Virus record (IMG/VR): IMGVR_UViG_3300003324_000465 | Location: 42,877 to 106,876 of that record | From: a virus | Length of the DNA stretch: 64,000 bases | Strand: one strand, 5' to 3' | Part shown: one piece after another, positions 39,153-51,026 of the stretch | How positions within the stretch are numbered: the stretch's first letter is position 1 | Layout: each line of letters begins with the position of its first letter | Translations under genes and position numbers: made by a program | The notes under the pieces: model-generated | What the model was told of the DNA's origin: nothing | Databases searched by the model: none | What the model saw: the letters and a program-made list of their open reading frames with translations, nothing else

Positions 39153-39369
39153 ATTAGATATTACGGGAGTAAGTGGTACAGGTATTGTAGCAGAAGTGGT
39201 AGAATTTAGTGATGGTGTTTGTATCGTTCATTGGATAGGACATATGACATTATCAAATGTTTCTTCTATTGTTATTTATAATTCGCGGGCGGATTTATTA
39301 GCAGTACATGGTCATAATGGAAATACAGTATTAGAGGAAATACATGGCGCTACAACAGAAATTAGATGA
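39127..39369 (+). CDS. conserved phage hypothetical protein
   Basis: DITGVSGTGIVAEVVEFSDG...HGHNGNT pattern. Confidence 0.65.
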   Translation: MKIYNLNRKLDITGVSGTGIVAEVVEFSDGVCIVHWIGHMTLSNVSSIVIYNSRADLLAVHGHNGNTVLEEIHGATTEIR

Positions 39370-41929
39370 AGGCGATATAGCACTATTAGAAGTTATAGAA
39401 GATCCCGTTTGGCTAGGAGAGTTTCTTAGAAGTACAAATGATGGCGAAGTTGATAAAAAACTATGGCCTGCTAATAGATGGACATATAGAGATTATCAAA
39501 GACAGTTCTTGACTGATCAATACGCCTTTATTTTATATACTGGCGGTAGAAGCATTGGCAAGTGCTCTCCTGGCGGCTCAAGGATATATACAACACAAGG
39601 TTATCGCAAACTTAGTGATGTAGCACAAGATAAAGCCTTTATTGCCTATACCTTTACTCCTGATATGTTACTAGAACAGCGTAGGGCTGTATGTGTATTA
39701 GACAAAAGGGATAAAGCTTATTCTATACGTACAGAAGCGGGTCATGAATTTATTGGTACGAATAATCATCCTATTTTAACACCAGAAGGTTATAAGCTTA
39801 TACGCGATCTTAATGTAGATGATTATGTAGCAATCGCTACACATTTACCGCATGAAAGTACTCAAAGGGCATTTAGATGGCATGAATTGAGGATTTTTGG
39901 TTATATATCTTTAATAAAAGGATTTACTGTAGAGCAGCCCATAATACCACGATGGTCTTCAATAGGTAAAGAATTTGAATATATTGCAGATCAGTTGTTA
40001 TTAAATTGGCATAAATCTATAGAAACAGGAGCATATACATTTATACGGAAACTTGGAGGAAATTTTCCACATCCGTTAACATCTTTATTGAGACAAATAA
40101 GACAAGCTGAGAATTTGAAGCGTTATGGTGTTATAAAACGTATACCTGATATTATAAAAGCTGAATGCCTTGAGAATATACAGATAATGCTTGAGTCTAT
40201 GTTTTCACAGCATGCGGTACTATCACAGAATAGCGTAATATTAAAAACATATTCAAGATTATTTGCACAAGACATACAAGAGCTACTTCTGAGATTTGGT
40301 ATTGAATCTTCAATAAAACATACTACTGTATCTTTATTAGATACCCGCGCTATTTATAAATTCTATACAACATTTAATTTACCCGGTATTGGTATAGGTA
40401 GATTAAAAGAACCATCAGCAATAACACAACTAACGCCATTTATGCGCTTTGATCGTATTGTGCATAAATATCAAAGTCGTGTAGATGTACAAACATATGC
40501 AGTACATGTCTATGAGCATAATAACTATATTGGTGATAATTTTTTTGTACATAATTCAGTTGTACTAGAAGATAAAATTGTACATGAGATTGTTAATGCT
40601 GATATCGAATTTCCGCCGGAAGATCGCGAGTCAGTATTAGTTACACCTAATCAAGCGCAAATGACGCCGTTACTAGGTAAATTAAATGGTAGGTTTAATT
40701 CAAGTAAATTTTTGCGCAGTTATTTAGGTAAGGTTAATCGATCAGATGGTATTATGGAATTTCCAATCCAAGGAAAAAGTAGTAAACCTATGATATTTAA
40801 TTTTCGTATTGCAGGAAGTAACGGGGAGCGCAATATGGTTGGCTTGCACATACCTAAAATACGTGCAGATGAGACACAATTATTCCCTCTATTAGCATGG
40901 ACTCAGCTTATGCCTGCATTAAATACATGGCAAAAAGAAAAACAAATTGTTGCTGCTGGTGTACATAATGGTTTACGTAATAGTGTTTTATATTTGCTCG
41001 ATTATCAAACACCGAAATATAAAAAATATAGAATACCGAGTCATAATAATCCATACTATACATACGAAGATGATATAGATAACATACGTAAATATGGTGG
41101 AGAGCAAGATGATCGTTATCAAAACCTTGTATTAGGAAGGCCAGGAGCGGCTGCATTTCAAGTTATACCACGAGAAAGCATTATAACTGAAACATTTGCG
41201 TTTTCGCGGCAAGTATATAATTCAGGACATGTAAATAAAGGTATTAATTACGATGATGTACTACAAAGACCGTCACTACCAGAAGATACACAAACTGTTG
41301 TTATAGCTATAGATCCTGGATTTGTTGATCCCACCATTATACAAGTCATTGCGCGAGATAAAAAAGGTATATGGCGTACATATATACGTTATAGACTAAT
41401 ACGAATTGATTTTAATCAACAACAAAAAATTATTGATTGGGTAGCACACTATTATAATGCTGCGATAATAACAATAGATATTGGTGCTGGCGGTCAAGGT
41501 CCTTCTATAATGCATAATCTTATGCATGGAGATGAATATAAATCACGTAAATATGAATCACGCATGATAGGTGTTCAATTCAGTGAGCAAATAATATCAG
41601 GCTATGATGAAGAAGGTGAAGAAATAAAGCAAGATACCAAAGGTTATGCAGCTAATGAATTAGCAAAAATAGTACAAGAAGGGCGTTTAATATTTAGCGA
41701 ATTTGATCACGAAGGTGTATCGCAGCTTGAAAGGATAGCAAAACAAAAATCAACATCTGGCAAGGATAGATATTTTGTTTTAAATGATAAAGGTGCTGGC
41801 GCTGATGAGGAAGATCATATTTTTGCATCTTACATAACATTTGTTATGGCTATTAGGAATATTGTTACTAATCCACAATTGAAAAAACTAGGATCGCCTT
41901 CTAGCGCGATCACATATAATAAAGAATGA
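39344..41929 (+). CDS. terL: terminase large subunit (intein-containing)
   Basis: Walker A GGRSIGK/S split by the intein, Walker B RADE, nuclease AIDPG and DH motifs; precedes portal. Confidence 0.9.
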   Translation: MALQQKLDEGDIALLEVIEDPVWLGEFLRSTNDGEVDKKLWPANRWTYRDYQRQFLTDQYAFILYTGGRSIGKCSPGGSRIYTTQGYRKLSDVAQDKAFIAYTFTPDMLLEQRRAVCVLDKRDKAYSIRTEAGHEFIGTNNHPILTPEGYKLIRDLNVDDYVAIATHLPHESTQRAFRWHELRIFGYISLIKGFTVEQPIIPRWSSIGKEFEYIADQLLLNWHKSIETGAYTFIRKLGGNFPHPLTSLLRQIRQAENLKRYGVIKRIPDIIKAECLENIQIMLESMFSQHAVLSQNSVILKTYSRLFAQDIQELLLRFGIESSIKHTTVSLLDTRAIYKFYTTFNLPGIGIGRLKEPSAITQLTPFMRFDRIVHKYQSRVDVQTYAVHVYEHNNYIGDNFFVHNSVVLEDKIVHEIVNADIEFPPEDRESVLVTPNQAQMTPLLGKLNGRFNSSKFLRSYLGKVNRSDGIMEFPIQGKSSKPMIFNFRIAGSNGERNMVGLHIPKIRADETQLFPLLAWTQLMPALNTWQKEKQIVAAGVHNGLRNSVLYLLDYQTPKYKKYRIPSHNNPYYTYEDDIDNIRKYGGEQDDRYQNLVLGRPGAAAFQVIPRESIITETFAFSRQVYNSGHVNKGINYDDVLQRPSLPEDTQTVVIAIDPGFVDPTIIQVIARDKKGIWRTYIRYRLIRIDFNQQQKIIDWVAHYYNAAIITIDIGAGGQGPSIMHNLMHGDEYKSRKYESRMIGVQFSEQIISGYDEEGEEIKQDTKGYAANELAKIVQEGRLIFSEFDHEGVSQLERIAKQKSTSGKDRYFVLNDKGAGADEEDHIFASYITFVMAIRNIVTNPQLKKLGSPSSAITYNKE
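39563..40555 (+). mobile_element. intein (331 aa) with degenerate LAGLIDADG domain
   Basis: Starts CSPGGSRI after GK, block B TNNHPIL, IQELLLRFGI, ends FFVHN before Ser. Confidence 0.92.
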
Positions 41930-46995: not shown

Positions 46996-47070
46996 GCGTC
47001 AATGATGTAATTGGTAGCATATTGCTCTCCAAAAGCAAGCGTTAGGGTTCAAATCCTTATTGACGTGCCA
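46996..47070 (+). tRNA. tRNA-Trp(CCA)
   Basis: TTGCT-CTCCAAA-AGCAA, CCA end. Confidence 0.9.
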
Positions 47071-47207
47071 TATATAATATAGCGGTTTATAGAATTACAA
47101 CGCTTACCAAACACCAAGCTATAATACGTTCGATTCGTATATGGGCTAATGGAAAACCTCTCGCAAGAGAACTGCCCACATATTCTATAAGATATTCGTA
47201 TTATATA
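47071..47207 (+). ncRNA. Y-RNA-like RNA 1
   Basis: Terminal stem, AGCGG, second stem, TACAACG, internal T-loop hairpin TACG-TTCGATT-CGTA, TATTC; upstream of Ro60. Confidence 0.75.
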
Positions 47208-47220
47208 AAACAAACACATA

Positions 47221-47331
47221 TACTGTAGCGGGAAAAATGCAATACAACGTTTATTTGATTAATAAAACACACTACGTTCAAATCGTACACTTGGGTTGGT
47301 TATCCCTTTTTGCTTTTTCATATTCACAGTA
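47221..47331 (+). ncRNA. Y-RNA-like RNA 2
   Basis: TACTGT/ACAGTA, AGCGG, TACAACG, T-loop TACG-TTCAAAT-CGTA, ATATTC. Confidence 0.75.
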
Positions 47332-47358
47332 ATTATAATATTTGCGGGCAATATTTAC

Positions 47359-47431
47359 GGAAACATGGTGTAAGCAGCATACATCTAGGAATAGATGAGG
47401 CGTAATGGGTTGGACTCCCACGTTTCCATCA
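47359..47431 (+). ncRNA. tRNA-like RNA with a GGAA-capped anticodon arm
   Basis: GGAAAC/GTTTCC acceptor, CATCTA-GGAA-TAGATG, TGGG-TTGGACT-CCCA. Confidence 0.5.
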
Positions 47432-47436
47432 CATAC

Positions 47437-47564
47437 AATACTATGTAGCGGAAAAATCCTTTACAACGAATAACATATGCCTTGTTAATGTGGTGATACA
47501 CGTAAAAATATTCTGCGATGCGCTACAGTTACGCATTATAGGATTTTTATATTCGCATAGCATT
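47437..47564 (+). ncRNA. Y-RNA-like RNA 3
   Basis: CTATGT/GCATAG, AGCGG, AAAAATCCT/AGGATTTTT, TACAACG, ATATTC. Confidence 0.75.
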
Positions 47565-47630
47565 CAAAAGAAAAAAAAACATTATTAAATGGTTTTATCG
47601 ACTTGCCAAATACAAGTATAATATTTAATT

Positions 47631-47768
47631 TTCTGTAGCGGATGTCAGCGATTACAACGCATTACGAGCGGGTGATTGTAGGTTCGAGTCCTACTGTCTG
47701 TACCATGTATACAGACATAGCTTAATGGCAAAGCACCTAAAATATATCGCGGGCAATTATTCACAGAA
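47631..47768 (+). ncRNA. Y-RNA-like RNA 4 (YrlA-like, permuted tRNA domain)
   Basis: TTCTGT/ACAGAA, AGCGG, TACAACG; T arm, then acceptor stem, then D arm. Confidence 0.85.
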
Positions 47769-47781
47769 GAACAATGATAAT

Positions 47782-47869
47782 AAGCTGCTACAGCGGAAAT
47801 ACAAGTACAACGAATATTTTTAGACAAAATTAACCGTAAACACCTTGTATTTAATATCCGTAGCAGCTT
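47782..47869 (+). ncRNA. Y-RNA-like RNA 5 (minimal)
   Basis: AAGCTGCTAC/GTAGCAGCTT, AGCGG, AAATACAAG/CTTGTATTT, TACAACG, ATATCC; followed by a T-run. Confidence 0.75.
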
Positions 47870-48155
47870 TTTTTATGATTCATCAGCCAAGTATTCAAGA
47901 AAGGATTTTTTATGCTAGATTTTTTTAAAGCAACAGAAGAAAATGGTTTGCGTTTTACTTCATGATGGTGATTATATGTGGATAACTGAAAACGAAGCAT
48001 TTTCAGGACAGCCTATTATTGCTACTGCAGTAATGTATAGGAATCATCCCTTAAGTGATTGGCAATTTGATGAAGAAAGTATCGATATACTAGATTCTAA
48101 GTATACTAAATAATTCGCGGGCAATTTATAAACCGTAGCAAAGGAATAAAATAAC

Positions 48156-49712
48156 ATGAGAAAAAATTTAACACAGGGATCAAAGAAAACAGTCAGTACA
48201 AAGCCGGTGGCACCAGTAGCCATGGGAGTAGCTCATAATCCTAATTATCGGTCAACACCAGTATCTTCATTTGAAGGCAATACTAACTATAAGCTTGATC
48301 CAATTGCAACATTGAAACTGGTAACTGCAAGTTCATTTTTTGGTGAGCCTTCTTTTTATGAAGGAAATACACGTACAGCGTTATTTGAACAGACAATTGA
48401 CGCGGCCCTTGATTATGATTTTTATGCGACACTTGATTGGGCTGGTGTATTACGTAATGCGTATTATATGCGCCTTAATCCTCAAATCATCATGACAAGA
48501 GCAGCAGTGCATCCAAAGCGTGGTGAGTTTACAAAACAATATCCCGGCGCATTTAATACATTTATGGAAATTGTTGCGAAAAGACCGGATGATCTTACTG
48601 CACAGGTAGAATATTACTTGTCAAAGTTTGAAGATCGTAAGGTTCATGGGGTTAAAGCCTCTCGTATGCCTGGAATTATGAAGCGTTCAATAGCACACCG
48701 TCTTGAGCAATTTAATCGTTATCAAATGGCGAAATATGCTAATCGTGGTATCGGTTTAATTGATATAGTTCGTTTAACACATGCTCATGGAGCATTAATT
48801 AACGAACTTATGAAAACTGGCGGAATTAGTATCGATGAGGAAGACCAAACATGGCGTACTATGCGTAGCGCTGGTAAGTCATGGACAGAGATTATTAATT
48901 CAGGCATCACACTAACACACCAAGATATACTTTTTCAAATGCGTTCTATTTTTGATTCTGTTAAGGGTGATACTGCTCAATATATTGCGGGCAAATTTCT
49001 TAATGGGGTCAAGAATGGTAAAATGTTCCCATATCAGTATTATATTGCTTTTCAGCAATTGAGTGAGGATACATTCAGTAATAAGATACTAGCGTTAGAT
49101 ACACTTCAAGAAGCCCTTGATATGTCTATTCGAGAACAGCCAAAATTAGGCGGAAGTGTTGCGGTTGTGGCAGATAATAGCGGATCTATGAATAATCCAC
49201 TTAAAGTAGACGGTCATCAAGTTACAGCAGCGGAAGTAGCTAATTTATCTGCAATTATGACAGCCTACAATGCTACTGATGGAGATGTATTCTCGTTTGG
49301 TACCACGTTAGCAAAGTTATCATATAGCAAGCGTGATGGTATAATGACAAATGCAAAACGGCTTGCTGATTTATCTACTGGATGGGGCACAAATATGGGA
49401 TTGTTCTGGCAATACGCTATACAACATAAAAAGAGTTATGATACCGTATTTGTATATAGTGATATGCAAGCTCTACCTGTTTCTGGATACGGTTATAACA
49501 ACGAAGTAAGAAACATGTATGACATTGTGAACGAATATCGCCGCAAGCTAAATCCAAAGGTAAATGTTTTCTACGTGCAAGTAGCAGGCTATGATAATAG
49601 TGTACAACCAGATAATACATATCGTGCAACTAACCTGTCTGGATGGACAGGTAAAGAGGTTATGTATGCTGCTGCTGTAAATGCTGTGTGGGATGAAGTA
49701 GATAGTAAATAA
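48156..49712 (+). CDS. Ro60/TROVE domain RNA-binding protein with vWA domain
   Basis: SFFGEPSFY, YYMRLNP, RPDDL, YQMAKY, DIVRLTH, FPYQY, vWA MIDAS ADNSGSM, GTN, YSDMQ, LSGW. Confidence 0.92.
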   Translation: MRKNLTQGSKKTVSTKPVAPVAMGVAHNPNYRSTPVSSFEGNTNYKLDPIATLKLVTASSFFGEPSFYEGNTRTALFEQTIDAALDYDFYATLDWAGVLRNAYYMRLNPQIIMTRAAVHPKRGEFTKQYPGAFNTFMEIVAKRPDDLTAQVEYYLSKFEDRKVHGVKASRMPGIMKRSIAHRLEQFNRYQMAKYANRGIGLIDIVRLTHAHGALINELMKTGGISIDEEDQTWRTMRSAGKSWTEIINSGITLTHQDILFQMRSIFDSVKGDTAQYIAGKFLNGVKNGKMFPYQYYIAFQQLSEDTFSNKILALDTLQEALDMSIREQPKLGGSVAVVADNSGSMNNPLKVDGHQVTAAEVANLSAIMTAYNATDGDVFSFGTTLAKLSYSKRDGIMTNAKRLADLSTGWGTNMGLFWQYAIQHKKSYDTVFVYSDMQALPVSGYGYNNEVRNMYDIVNEYRRKLNPKVNVFYVQVAGYDNSVQPDNTYRATNLSGWTGKEVMYAAAVNAVWDEVDSK

Positions 49713-49755: not shown

Positions 49756-49830
49756 TGCAGAATCAGCTAATAGGTAGGTTGGTACTCTCTGAAAGTGCCT
49801 GTACAGGTTCGAGTCCTGTTTCTGTAACCA
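49756..49830 (+). tRNA. tRNA-Gln(CTG)
   Basis: GTACT-CTCTGAA-AGTGC, GGTTCGAGTCC, CCA. Confidence 0.8.
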
Positions 49831-50326: not shown

Positions 50327-50419
50327 ATGAAAACTATTGTTCGCACTCCGAAGGGTAGCGCTCGTGTTGGTCCTATGACCGCTAAGTATCTGAAGTATAT
50401 CCAATACAGCGGCGCGTAG
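50327..50419 (+). CDS. 30-aa basic peptide
   Basis: AGGAG SD, MKTIVRTPKGSARVGPMTAKYLKYIQYSGA, hairpin at the stop. Confidence 0.55.
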   Translation: MKTIVRTPKGSARVGPMTAKYLKYIQYSGA

Positions 50420-50432
50420 TAATCTACGCCGT

Positions 50433-50962
50433 ATCTCTCACTAGTATGTTTTCCTAGTGCAGTATAGTGAGATGTATCTAAACTAGGACGCGGAATAAAT
50501 GAATCGTAACAATTGCGAAACTGATAGCTAATTGCTTAGGCAAGCGGTGACGCAGATAGGTGTTACGTGGAGTTGTTAACTACTAATCAATGAAGCTGTA
50601 GGCAACATGCGTTATGTGGAGATTAGAATAATAGCTAACAGCGAAAGAGCAACAAGAGTCGCAAGCTCCGTGCTGTGGATTTGCTGCACAGCGTTAACAT
50701 GCAGAATGGGTACAATAGGTTATGAAATGTTTCTATTGTATGGCTCTGCAATAACATTTCCCGCGTTGTATTAAACTCGCTATTTGACGTACACGCGGTT
50801 ATAATAATAGTGATGGTACTCTGCCCATTTAGAGCCTTACCTTTAAGCTGTAAGCGTAAGTAATCAGCAGAGAGACAGCTATTGACAAATGCTCATGTAC
50901 GCTACTATAAAAATGGATGACACCACAGTAAAATACAGAGTGTAGCTTAGAGTTTGTCAATA
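50433..50962 (+). ncRNA. candidate large structured ncRNA (family unassigned)
   Basis: ORF-free 530 nt with nested stems, e.g. ACGCGG(AAT)AAATG/CATTTCCCGCGT and TATTGACAAA/TTTGTCAATA. Confidence 0.45.
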
Positions 50963-51026
50963 TTGCGAGCAATTATTTGTAAAGTGTACGTTACTGTGTG
51001 CTGTATCTCTCAAAGGATGAATATAT

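What the first reader, a model, noticed from the sequence alone, without database searches (positions are those of the whole stretch)
47071..49712. Five tandem Y-RNA-like genes with one shared scaffold and five different cargo domains, upstream of a phage Ro60
Seen: five units (47071-47207, 47221-47331, 47437-47564, 47631-47768, 47782-47869) all read stem1-AGCGG-stem2-TACAACG-variable domain-stem2'-TATTC/TATCC-stem1'. The stem sequences differ between copies but stay complementary, whereas AGCGG, TACAACG and TATYC are fixed. Cargo differs: T-loop hairpin plus GCAA hairpin (1), T-loop (2), no T-loop (3), permuted tRNA (4), minimal loop (5). Known: bacterial Ro60 (Rsr) binds a conserved helix formed by the ends of Y RNAs, which tether it to effectors such as PNPase; the characterised loci have about two Y RNAs. 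Inference: a modular phage RNP in which one Ro60 is directed by interchangeable adaptor RNAs, perhaps for tRNA salvage or as decoys against tRNA-targeting defences. The unpaired UACAACG may be an additional contact site. No RtcB is visible in this window.
Basis: partly seen in the sequence, partly recalled or inferred. Interest (0 to 1): 0.88.

Follow-up and report, generated by a model that had tools for sequence, protein, structure and literature searches.

The report
Phage Ro60 with five Y RNAs
An uncultured phage carries five small RNA genes in a row that share one conserved two-stem "handle" but have different middles. They lie just upstream of its Ro60 ring-protein gene and belong to a large RNA family, which I could not find described, that sits beside this kind of Ro60 in hundreds of phage and bacterial contigs.

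Summary
The pattern AGCGG-N6-14-TACAACG occurs exactly five times in the 64-kb window (0.02 expected), all on the + strand at 47.07-47.87 kb. Each copy is closed by two stems whose sequences differ between copies but stay complementary. The 518-aa ORF downstream is a genuine Ro60: it passes Pfam vWA_Ro60, and the 12 best PDB fold matches of its AlphaFold model are all Ro60.

The handle is not private to this phage. Bacillus phage G has seven such units around its Ro60 gene gp540. A covariance model (R1) built mostly from other phages finds all five window units and nothing else in the window. In DNA around Ro60 relatives it finds 170 hits in viral loci and 111 in metagenome loci, all on the Ro60 strand, plus 78 in genome contigs (74 on that strand). 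It finds none in 817 kb of unrelated viral DNA. Both stems covary strongly.

Most loci have 1-3 units; some have 5-8. Middles range from open loops to T-arm hairpins, YrlA-type permuted tRNA mimics (unit 4) and, in relatives, whole tRNA look-alikes.

These are most likely Ro60-bound Y RNAs with a variant handle. Binding, expression and function are untested. This scan has noted the same kind of array on other DNA.

The parts
46996..47070 (+). tRNA-Trp(CCA) with an encoded CCA end. It abuts unit 1, which suggests co-transcription and shared end processing.
   Evidence: ARAGORN; Rfam tRNA 56 bits; sequence
47072..47207 (+). Y-like unit 1: 10-bp stem1, AGCGG, 10-bp stem2, UACAACG. The 79-nt cargo has a T-arm-like hairpin (about 47124-47140) and a GCAA-capped hairpin. 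The 3' loop is AUAUUC.
   Evidence: model R1 33.7 bits, E 3.7e-5, and this unit was not in the training set
47221..47331 (+). Y-like unit 2: 6-bp stem1, AGCGG, stem2 with one bulge, UACAACG. The cargo has three small hairpins, one of them T-arm-like (loop UUCAAAU).
   Evidence: R1 29.1 bits
47359..47431 (+). Spacer element that folds like a tRNA, but its anticodon arm is a 6-bp stem capped by GGAA. It lacks the handle and is not called by ARAGORN or the Rfam tRNA model.
   Evidence: RNAfold -19.8 kcal/mol cloverleaf-like fold; no hit
47441..47560 (+). Y-like unit 3: 6-bp stem1 (10 bp with one A.C mismatch if extended to 47437-47564), AGCGG, 9-bp stem2, UACAACG. The 71-nt cargo has no T loop.
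   Evidence: R1 22.1 bits, E 0.015, not in the training set. The unconstrained MFE fold does not recover the handle, so this unit rests on the family model.
47631..47768 (+). Y-like unit 4: the handle plus a YrlA-type permuted tRNA mimic (T arm, 7-bp acceptor-like stem with internal ACCA, D arm).
   Evidence: Rfam YrlA 30.1 bits, E 3.7e-4, below gathering 69; fold; R1 26.5 bits, not in the training set
47783..47869 (+). Y-like unit 5: 10-bp stem1, AGCGG, 9-bp stem2, UACAACG, a 31-nt open loop, and 3' loop AAUAUCC. It is followed directly by a run of eight T (47870-47877), which may be the end of the transcript.
   Evidence: Fold z-score -5.6; R1 48.1 bits; sequence
47943..48113 (+). 56-aa ORF between the array and Ro60. 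It has no family match, and it is uncertain whether it is a gene.
   Evidence: no Pfam hit
48156..49712 (+). Ro60 (TROVE/HEAT ring plus a vWA domain with an intact MIDAS motif), 518 aa.
   Evidence: Pfam vWA_Ro60 33.6 bits, over the cut-off; TROVE 15.9 bits, under the cut-off. PDB sequence hit to Thermus phage phiLo Ro60, E 1.2e-8. AF2 pLDDT 80.7, and the 12 best fold hits are all Ro60. D340/S342/S344 are invariant in 32 homologues.
49756..49830 (+). tRNA-Gln(CTG) directly after Ro60. The module lies inside a 22-tRNA island.

Best explanation
The five units are paralogous Y-type non-coding RNAs of the phage's own Ro60. They are probably transcribed with the surrounding tRNA genes and cut out by the tRNA-processing machinery. 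Unit 1 starts right after the CCA of tRNA-Trp, and unit 5 ends in a U run.

The constant part is two helices formed by the 5' and 3' ends, separated by the asymmetric internal loop AGCGG / AUAUYC and followed by UAC..C. This is the docking handle for the Ro60 ring. It plays the role of the terminal stem plus GNCGAA motif in bacterial YrlA/YrlB and of the bulged helix in animal Y RNAs. The variable middle projects from the ring. By analogy with known Y RNAs, it either tethers Ro60 to another factor or controls access to the ring.

Three of the five middles carry tRNA parts. Unit 4 is a full YrlA-type tRNA mimic whose 7-bp acceptor-like stem could be recognised by RNase P and tRNA-modifying enzymes.

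What is shown: the RNA family is real, its stems are under selection, it is tightly linked to Ro60, and the cargo is modular. What is inferred: Ro60 binding, processing into separate RNAs, and any role in tRNA or RNA surveillance during infection.
For: - Motif count: 5 in the window against 0.02 expected, all on the + strand.
- Shared handle: it is found around Bacillus phage G gp540, whose Ro60 is 39% identical. GCGG-N6-14-TACTTC occurs 7 times there against 0.03 expected, and one of those units is the phage's YrlA-type RNA.
- Covariation without a structure prior: in a MAFFT alignment of 29 units from 20 sources, 15 of 15 predicted pairs show compensatory changes, and the inner five pairs of stem1 have no broken pairs.
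- Covariation on the model alignment: on 126 distinct units, 91.7% of cells are paired, against 59% after shuffling and about 43% after sliding the partner. The covariation score is 0.83 against 0.22.
- Model R1 in the window: it finds units 1, 3 and 4, which were not used to build it, and nothing else at E<=1.
- Model R1 elsewhere: it gives 170 hits in 827 kb around viral Ro60 genes, all on the Ro60 strand. Of the best 150, 127 lie within 1 kb of Ro60.
- Further R1 hits: 111 in metagenome loci, all on the + strand, and 78 in bacterial or MAG contigs, 74 of them on the + strand.
- Negative control: 0 hits in 817 kb of unrelated viral DNA.
- Whole genomes: in five whole phage genomes (1.6 Mb), 17 of 18 hits lie within about 5 kb of Ro60.
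- tRNA-like cargo: YrlA or tRNA models hit the cargo of units in the window and in L006, L161, L165, L181, L182 and L191.
- The protein is Ro60 by sequence and by fold.
- Published precedent: bacterial and phage Ro60 genes have Y RNAs encoded within 2-4 kb, at least one of them tRNA-like (PMC4201824). Thermus phage phiLo Ro60 binds two upstream Y-like RNAs in vitro (PMC12135203).
Against: - There is no expression or binding evidence for any member of this handle family.
- The published Ro60-recognition motif GNCGAAN0-1G is not present in the window's units. The stem-loop junction reads GU/AU/AC + AGCGG. Most relatives read UGA+AGCGG and only a subset read CGA+AGCGG.
- Rfam YrlA aligns only the tRNA-like part consistently. 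Its alignment of the handle differs from unit to unit, so handle homology with YrlA is an argument from architecture only.
- Unit 4 scores far below YrlA's gathering score.
- The unconstrained MFE fold of unit 3 does not give the handle.
- The host is unknown, so the processing route is guesswork.
Confidence: 0.8

Rival explanations
1. The handle is a processing or maturation cassette for tRNA-like cargo. The two stems would act as a leader-trailer duplex recognised by RNase III, P or Z or another phage factor. Ro60 would be linked only because it inspects or discards these RNAs as substrates, not because it keeps them as stable partners.
For: The units sit among tRNA genes and abut tRNA ends: window unit 1 and L191 unit 4818, directly after a tRNA. 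In L181, L182 and L191, stem2 takes the place of a tRNA acceptor stem around nearly complete tRNA bodies.
Against: Many units, including window units 3 and 5 and most short units in relatives, have no tRNA-like cargo yet keep the handle. Whole-genome searches find the handle only next to Ro60, not at the many other tRNA genes of the same phages. Known Ro60 substrates are bound by their single-stranded 3' ends, not by a conserved internal loop.
Confidence: 0.1
2. The units are cis-acting regulatory structures (attenuators, protein-binding leaders or terminators) that control Ro60 expression.
For: They lie directly upstream of Ro60 on the same strand. Unit 5 ends in a U run, like an intrinsic terminator.
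Against: In about a third of related loci the units lie downstream of Ro60 (54 of the 150 best hits). Copy number varies from 1 to 8 and the cargos are unrelated. In phage G, protein-coding genes lie between some units and Ro60. A 56-aa ORF and a separate conserved upstream motif lie between unit 5 and Ro60 in the window.
Confidence: 0.04
3. The units are decaying tRNA-gene duplicates or selfish repeats with no function.
For: The setting is a tRNA-rich island with other tRNA-like remnants. T-arm fragments occur in 3 of the 5 units.
Against: Both stems show strong compensatory covariation across hundreds of units, and the loop letters are invariant over Ro60 proteins only 36-52% identical. The strand bias is strict and the units are linked to one gene.
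Confidence: 0.02

Closest known systems
YrlA / YrlB Y RNAs of bacterial Rsr (Salmonella, Mycobacterium smegmatis, mycobacteriophages; Rfam RF02553; Chen et al. 2014, PMC4201824; YrlA structure, bioRxiv 10.1101/312249)
   Same: They are encoded within a few kb of Ro60. The 5' and 3' ends pair into two helices separated by an internal loop with conserved purine-rich letters on the 5' strand. A conserved UA follows helix 2 (YUAY in YrlA, UAC here). One RNA per locus carries a permuted tRNA mimic in T - acceptor-like - D order, as in unit 4. Its partner RNAs are simpler and may carry only a T arm.
   Different: The loop letters differ: AGCGG / AUAUYC here, against GNCGAAN0-1G and A-rich CUUG in YrlA. 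Unit 4 reaches 30 bits against a gathering score of 69, and only its tRNA-like part aligns reliably. Characterised bacteria have two Y RNAs; this locus has five and its relatives up to 7-8. No RtcB is nearby.
Bacillus phage G gp540 (TROVE protein) and its reported YrlA-type RNA
   Same: It carries the same handle family. Seven units (GCGG - stem - UACUUC ... AAUC - stem) lie within 4 kb of a Ro60 that is 39% identical, inside a tRNA/tmRNA island.
   Different: The literature I could read credits phage G only with a Y RNA-like RNA (PMC12135203, citing Chen 2014). I found no description of the six paralogues that lack a YrlA domain. The phage G handle uses UACUUC and ...AUC, where the window uses UACAAC and ...UUC.
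Thermus phage phiLo Ro60 with Yrl1 and Yrl2 (PMC12135203; PDB 9KOP, 9L5Y)
   Same: It is a phage Ro60 with Y-like RNAs upstream. It is the best structural match to the window's Ro60 (E 9e-18, TM 0.66/0.73). In vitro it binds its RNAs and forms ternary complexes with host PNPase.
   Different: It has two RNAs, found by a CGAA motif, and no shared AGCGG/UAC handle is described. Protein identity is only about 18%.
Deinococcus radiodurans Yrn1/Yrn2 with Rsr and PNPase (RYPER)
   Same: It is the model for how this is likely to work: the Y RNA handle binds the ring and the other module tethers an effector. Yrn1 has an unpermuted tRNA-like order, like the whole-tRNA heads seen in L181, L182 and L191.
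   Different: The Deinococcus handle keeps the animal-type bulged helix. No PNPase gene or link to PNPase is visible here.
Vertebrate Y RNAs (2-4 clustered paralogues)
   Same: They are small paralogue families with a constant Ro60-binding stem and variable loops that bind different proteins.
   Different: They are Pol III genes with a GGUCCGA bulged helix and no tRNA-like modules.

Membership tests
Ro60 / TROVE protein | HEAT-repeat ring (TROVE) followed by a vWA domain | tested here: met
   Pfam vWA_Ro60 33.6 bits (cut-off 27.7); TROVE only 15.9 bits (cut-off 23). The 12 best fold matches of the AF2 model are all Ro60 structures, E 9e-18 to 3.5e-12. phmmer hit to 9KOP, E 1.2e-8.
Ro60 / TROVE protein | MIDAS motif (DxSxS) in the vWA domain | tested here: met
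   D340, S342 and S344 are invariant in the alignment of 32 homologues.
Y RNA (functional class) | Encoded next to the Ro60 gene | tested here: met
   The array ends 287 nt upstream of Ro60 on the same strand. In relatives, 127 of the 150 best hits lie within 1 kb of Ro60, and whole-genome searches find the handle only there.
Y RNA (functional class) | About 80-140 nt, with the 5' and 3' ends paired into a long stem interrupted by an internal loop and a variable second module | tested here: met
   The units are 87-138 nt. Two covarying helices flank a conserved asymmetric loop.
Y RNA (functional class) | Conserved Ro60-recognition letters (GGUCCGA in animals, GNCGAAN0-1G in YrlA/YrlB) | tested here: not met
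   The window units read (GU/AU/AC)+AGCGG. The family consensus is YGA+AGCGG, which shares only GAAG with the published motif.
Y RNA (functional class) | Physically bound by Ro60 and present as a discrete stable RNA | not testable with these tools
   Needs RNA-seq or Northern blots and a pull-down or EMSA.
YrlA (Rfam RF02553) | Score at or above the curated gathering threshold (69 bits) | tested here: not met
   Unit 4 scores 30.1 bits, E 3.7e-4. Units 1, 2, 3 and 5 give no hit at E<=10.
YrlA (Rfam RF02553) | tRNA-like module with T arm, acceptor-like stem-loop and D arm, in that order | tested here: met
   Unit 4 only: the cmscan alignment covers T, AS and D with high posterior probability, and the fold agrees.

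The most novel reading that the evidence does not exclude
The phage Ro60 ring works with a library of interchangeable adaptor RNAs whose heads imitate tRNAs or parts of them. In relatives these include heads with intact Lys-UUU, Thr-GGU and Ser-GCU anticodon loops. Together they would form a counter-defence device that soaks up or senses host anticodon nucleases and other tRNA-targeting immunity, or delivers damaged phage tRNAs to repair. On this reading, array size and head repertoire track the defences a phage meets.
Probability: 0.2. Interest if true: 0.85.

Novelty: new variant of a known kind. Interest (0 to 1): 0.62.

Why it matters
Ro60 and Y RNAs are an old, medically known RNP, and what they do in bacteria and phages is still unclear. 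This locus and its relatives supply about 360 model hits (including near-duplicate loci) with one well-defined, covarying handle and a natural series of exchangeable heads.

That yields a testable definition of what this Ro60 clade recognises: AGCGG / AUAUYC / UAC..C. It shows that Y RNA repertoires in phages can reach 5-8 per genome rather than two. It also points to a tractable experimental system, Bacillus phage G on B. megaterium with seven units, for asking what each head recruits. The placement inside phage tRNA islands and the tRNA-like heads tie the system to tRNA biology during infection, and phage tRNA genes are one known way round host tRNA-cleaving defences.

Tried and rejected
Searches that found nothing useful:
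- blastn of the locus against 50,697 phage records: no match.
- A single-protein scan of IMG/VR: none.
- The exact pattern GTAGCGG..TACAACG in IMG/VR: 120 single chance hits. R1 later matched none of the first 100 of those loci, so they served as a negative control.
- A metagenome scan for closer Ro60 relatives: nothing above 42% identity. The nearest neighbour available is a 5-kb contig binned as TM6 (52%), which has at least 3 units of the UACAAC variant but is cut off.

Tools and papers not available:
- The Chen 2014 supplements and the two Wolin-lab reviews are not held. I therefore could not see which phage G RNA was reported.

Handle homology:
- I tried to show sequence homology of the handle to YrlA through Rfam alignments. 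The handle columns align differently in different units, so I claim only the same architecture.

Repair genes in the whole record:
- RtcB and the CCA-adding enzyme family are absent.
- The Rnl1 search is uninformative because its control failed.
- One Rnl2-family RNA ligase lies 77 kb away.

Other points:
- The sigma-70 promoter scan is no better than shuffles.
- I considered and rejected a riboswitch or attenuator, tRNA pseudogenes, known ribozymes (no Rfam hit at E<=10) and a coding region (only ORFs of 60 aa or fewer overlap the array).
- A possible likeness to Dictyostelium Class I RNAs, raised in earlier notes of this scan, was not tested beyond the absence of any Rfam hit.
Full report
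**What is in the sequence**

The stretch 47071-47869 holds five + strand units with the layout stem1 - AGCGG - stem2 - TACAACG - variable part - stem2' - (A)TATTC or ATATCC - stem1'. The pattern AGCGG-N6-14-TACAACG matches exactly these five places in 64 kb, against 0.02 expected from shuffles. It has no further copies in the whole 106,876-bp virus record, which has direct terminal repeats.

Stem sequences differ completely between units but remain complementary. Stem1 is 6-10 bp. Stem2 is 9-11 bp, with a bulge in unit 2 and weak pairing in unit 4. Unconstrained folding recovers the handle in units 1, 2, 4 and 5 (unit 5 z = -5.6) but not in unit 3.

The cargo descriptions are accurate:
- Units 1 and 2 carry T-arm-like hairpins.
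- Unit 1 also has a GCAA-capped hairpin.
- Unit 3 has no T loop.
- Unit 4 is matched by Rfam YrlA across its T arm, acceptor-like stem-loop and D arm (30.1 bits, E 3.7e-4, gathering score 69).
- Unit 5 has an open 31-nt loop.

**The protein**

ORF 48156-49712 (518 aa) passes Pfam vWA_Ro60 and weakly matches TROVE. It hits the solved Thermus phage phiLo Ro60 by sequence, E 1.2e-8.

An AlphaFold model built on 32 homologues has pLDDT 80.7 and pTM 0.74. Its 12 best PDB matches are all Ro60, from phage, Deinococcus, Xenopus and human. The MIDAS residues are invariant.

The array and Ro60 lie inside an island of 22 tRNA genes on the same strand. The phage also encodes a DNA polymerase, a DnaB-like helicase, ribonucleotide reductase and an amidase-type lysin.

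**The handle is a family**

The best named relative of the protein is Bacillus phage G gp540, at 39% identity. Around gp540 the pattern GCGG-N6-14-TACTTC occurs 7 times against 0.03 expected. Each copy is closed by two complementary stems and a 3' loop ending in AUC or AAC. One copy carries the YrlA-like domain.

A profile of 32 homologues fetched 80 IMG/VR loci with Ro60 at 36-42% identity. Across the window, phage G and those loci, the loose pattern GCGG-N5-14-TACNNC occurs 186 times on the Ro60 strand and 16 times on the other strand.

Parsing gave the family consensus stem1(..YGA) - AGCGG - stem2 - UACUUCA - cargo of 5 to about 230 nt - stem2' - RAUAUUC - stem1'(UCR..).

**Covariation**

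A structure-blind MAFFT alignment of 29 short units gave 15 predicted pairs. Every pair shows compensatory changes, and the inner five pairs of stem1 have no broken pairs.

On 126 distinct units aligned to the model, 91.7% of cells pair. After shuffling the figure is 59%, and after sliding the partner it is about 43%. The covariation score is 0.83 against 0.22. This alignment is fitted to the model and so leans towards it. The MAFFT result does not have that bias.

**Specificity and linkage**

Covariance model R1 finds all five window units, including units 1, 3 and 4, which were not used to build it. It finds nothing else in the window at E<=1.

| DNA searched | R1 hits | Strand |
|---|---|---|
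| 827 kb around viral Ro60 genes (E<=0.1) | 170 | all on the Ro60 strand |
| Metagenome loci around Ro60 (E<=0.001) | 111 | all on the Ro60 strand |
| Bacterial or MAG contigs (E<=0.01; mostly Clostridia; also Bacillus, Synergistaceae and a spirochaete bin) | 78 | 74 on the Ro60 strand, 4 opposite |
| 817 kb of unrelated viral contigs (E<=0.01) | 0 | - |

Of the best 150 viral hits, 127 lie within 1 kb of Ro60: 95 upstream, 54 downstream and 1 overlapping the assumed Ro60 span. In five whole phage genomes totalling 1.6 Mb, 17 of 18 hits lie within about 5 kb of Ro60.

**Array size**

By the conservative count (best 150 hits), the 81 viral loci have 0 to 7 units:

| Units per locus | 0 | 1 | 2 | 3 | 4 | 5 | 7 |
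|---|---|---|---|---|---|---|---|
| Loci | 5 | 31 | 29 | 10 | 1 | 4 | 1 |

Metagenome loci L292, L298 and L313 have 6-8 units. Five is therefore in the upper tail but not unique.

**Cargo across the family**

Most units are short (median 86 nt) with a simple loop or hairpin. 24 of 126 have a T-arm-like hairpin.

Some cargos are YrlA-type permuted mimics (window unit 4; L006; L161; L165). In L181, L182 and L191 the handle's stem2 replaces the acceptor stem of an otherwise ordinary tRNA body. ARAGORN reads these as Lys-UUU, Thr-GGU, Ser-GCU or a UUA suppressor.

The nearest relative, L210 (Ro60 52% identical), shares the window's UACAAC variant. It shows the same order of a YrlA-type unit followed by short units and then Ro60.

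**Relation to known Y RNAs**

Chen et al. 2014 (PMC4201824) found YrlA-type RNAs near Ro60 in 254 bacteria and 22 phages and described two Y RNAs in each characterised species. They named a 5' motif, GNCGAAN0-1G, and a conserved YUAY after the second helix. The YrlA structure paper notes that the conserved UA causes a kink (10.1101/312249). The phiLo paper shows a phage Ro60 binding two upstream Y-like RNAs (PMC12135203).

The handle here has the same architecture: helix, 5-nt purine-rich loop, helix, then UA. Its letters differ, and the Rfam model aligns the handle inconsistently.

I found no paper describing this handle or multi-copy phage arrays in two full-text searches. Two reviews and the supplements of the key paper were not available to me.

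**Mechanism**

The most likely reading is Ro60-bound Y RNAs with a constant docking handle and exchangeable heads. They would be made from the tRNA-island transcript: unit 1 abuts the CCA of tRNA-Trp and unit 5 is followed by T8. This part is inference.

The genome lacks RtcB but has an Rnl2-family RNA ligase elsewhere. That fits an RNA-repair or surveillance setting without showing one.

**Earlier notes of this scan**

Other agents reported same-design arrays beside Ro60-like genes on other DNA, including the phage G paralogues and whole-tRNA heads. I reached those two points independently, before reading the notes, and they agree with what I tested.

Noticed in passing
window 46896, 47344, 47749, 48117, 48987, 49890 (+), and 10 more sites in the window: The 8-mer GCGGGCAA (once GCGGGCGA), flanked by AT-rich sequence (roughly TATWTT-GCGGGCAA-WWTWT), occurs 16 times in the window against 0.86 expected, 14 of them on the + strand. 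In the whole record it occurs 17 times forward and 3 times reverse. Six copies crowd the 3 kb around the Y array and Ro60, often 8-32 nt before an RNA or gene start. One copy overlaps stem2' of unit 4. It may be a phage-specific promoter or a protein-binding site.
   Followed up: partly
window 47359-47431: Between units 2 and 3 lies a 73-nt element that folds like a tRNA (6-bp acceptor stem, T-like arm), but its anticodon arm is a 6-bp stem capped by GGAA. ARAGORN and Rfam tRNA do not call it, and it lacks the Y handle.
   Followed up: partly
L181:6612-7000, L182:1801-2046, L191:6655-7018: In three related phages the Y handle encloses nearly complete, normally ordered tRNA bodies. ARAGORN reads them as Lys-UUU, Thr-GGU, Ser-GCU and a UUA suppressor, and the handle's stem2 stands in for the acceptor stem.
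   Followed up: partly
L165:2809-3452: A ROOL RNA (Rfam RF03087, 284 bits) lies among tRNA genes about 1.5 kb upstream of the Ro60 gene of this related phage.
   Followed up: no
window 50409-51006: An ORF-poor, GC-richer stretch before tRNA-Arg begins with AGCGG ... TACGCCG. It is not matched by the handle model (no R1 hit at E<=1) or by any Rfam family at gathering score. It may be another structured RNA.
   Followed up: no
window 39344-41929: An 861-aa ORF has intein-splicing and LAGLIDADG domain matches, so an intein probably interrupts a phage gene.
   Followed up: no
G000:C1:12319-12852 (outside the window): A 445-aa ORF matches the Rnl2-type RNA ligase family PF09414 (45.4 bits, over the cut-off). 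It is the only RNA-repair-type gene found in the record.
   Followed up: no
L247 (spirochaete MAG contig) 1823-2830; L228 2296-2892: Contigs binned to bacteria also carry 4-5 handle units upstream of a Ro60 relative. I did not check whether these are prophages, mis-binned phage contigs or cellular loci.
   Followed up: no
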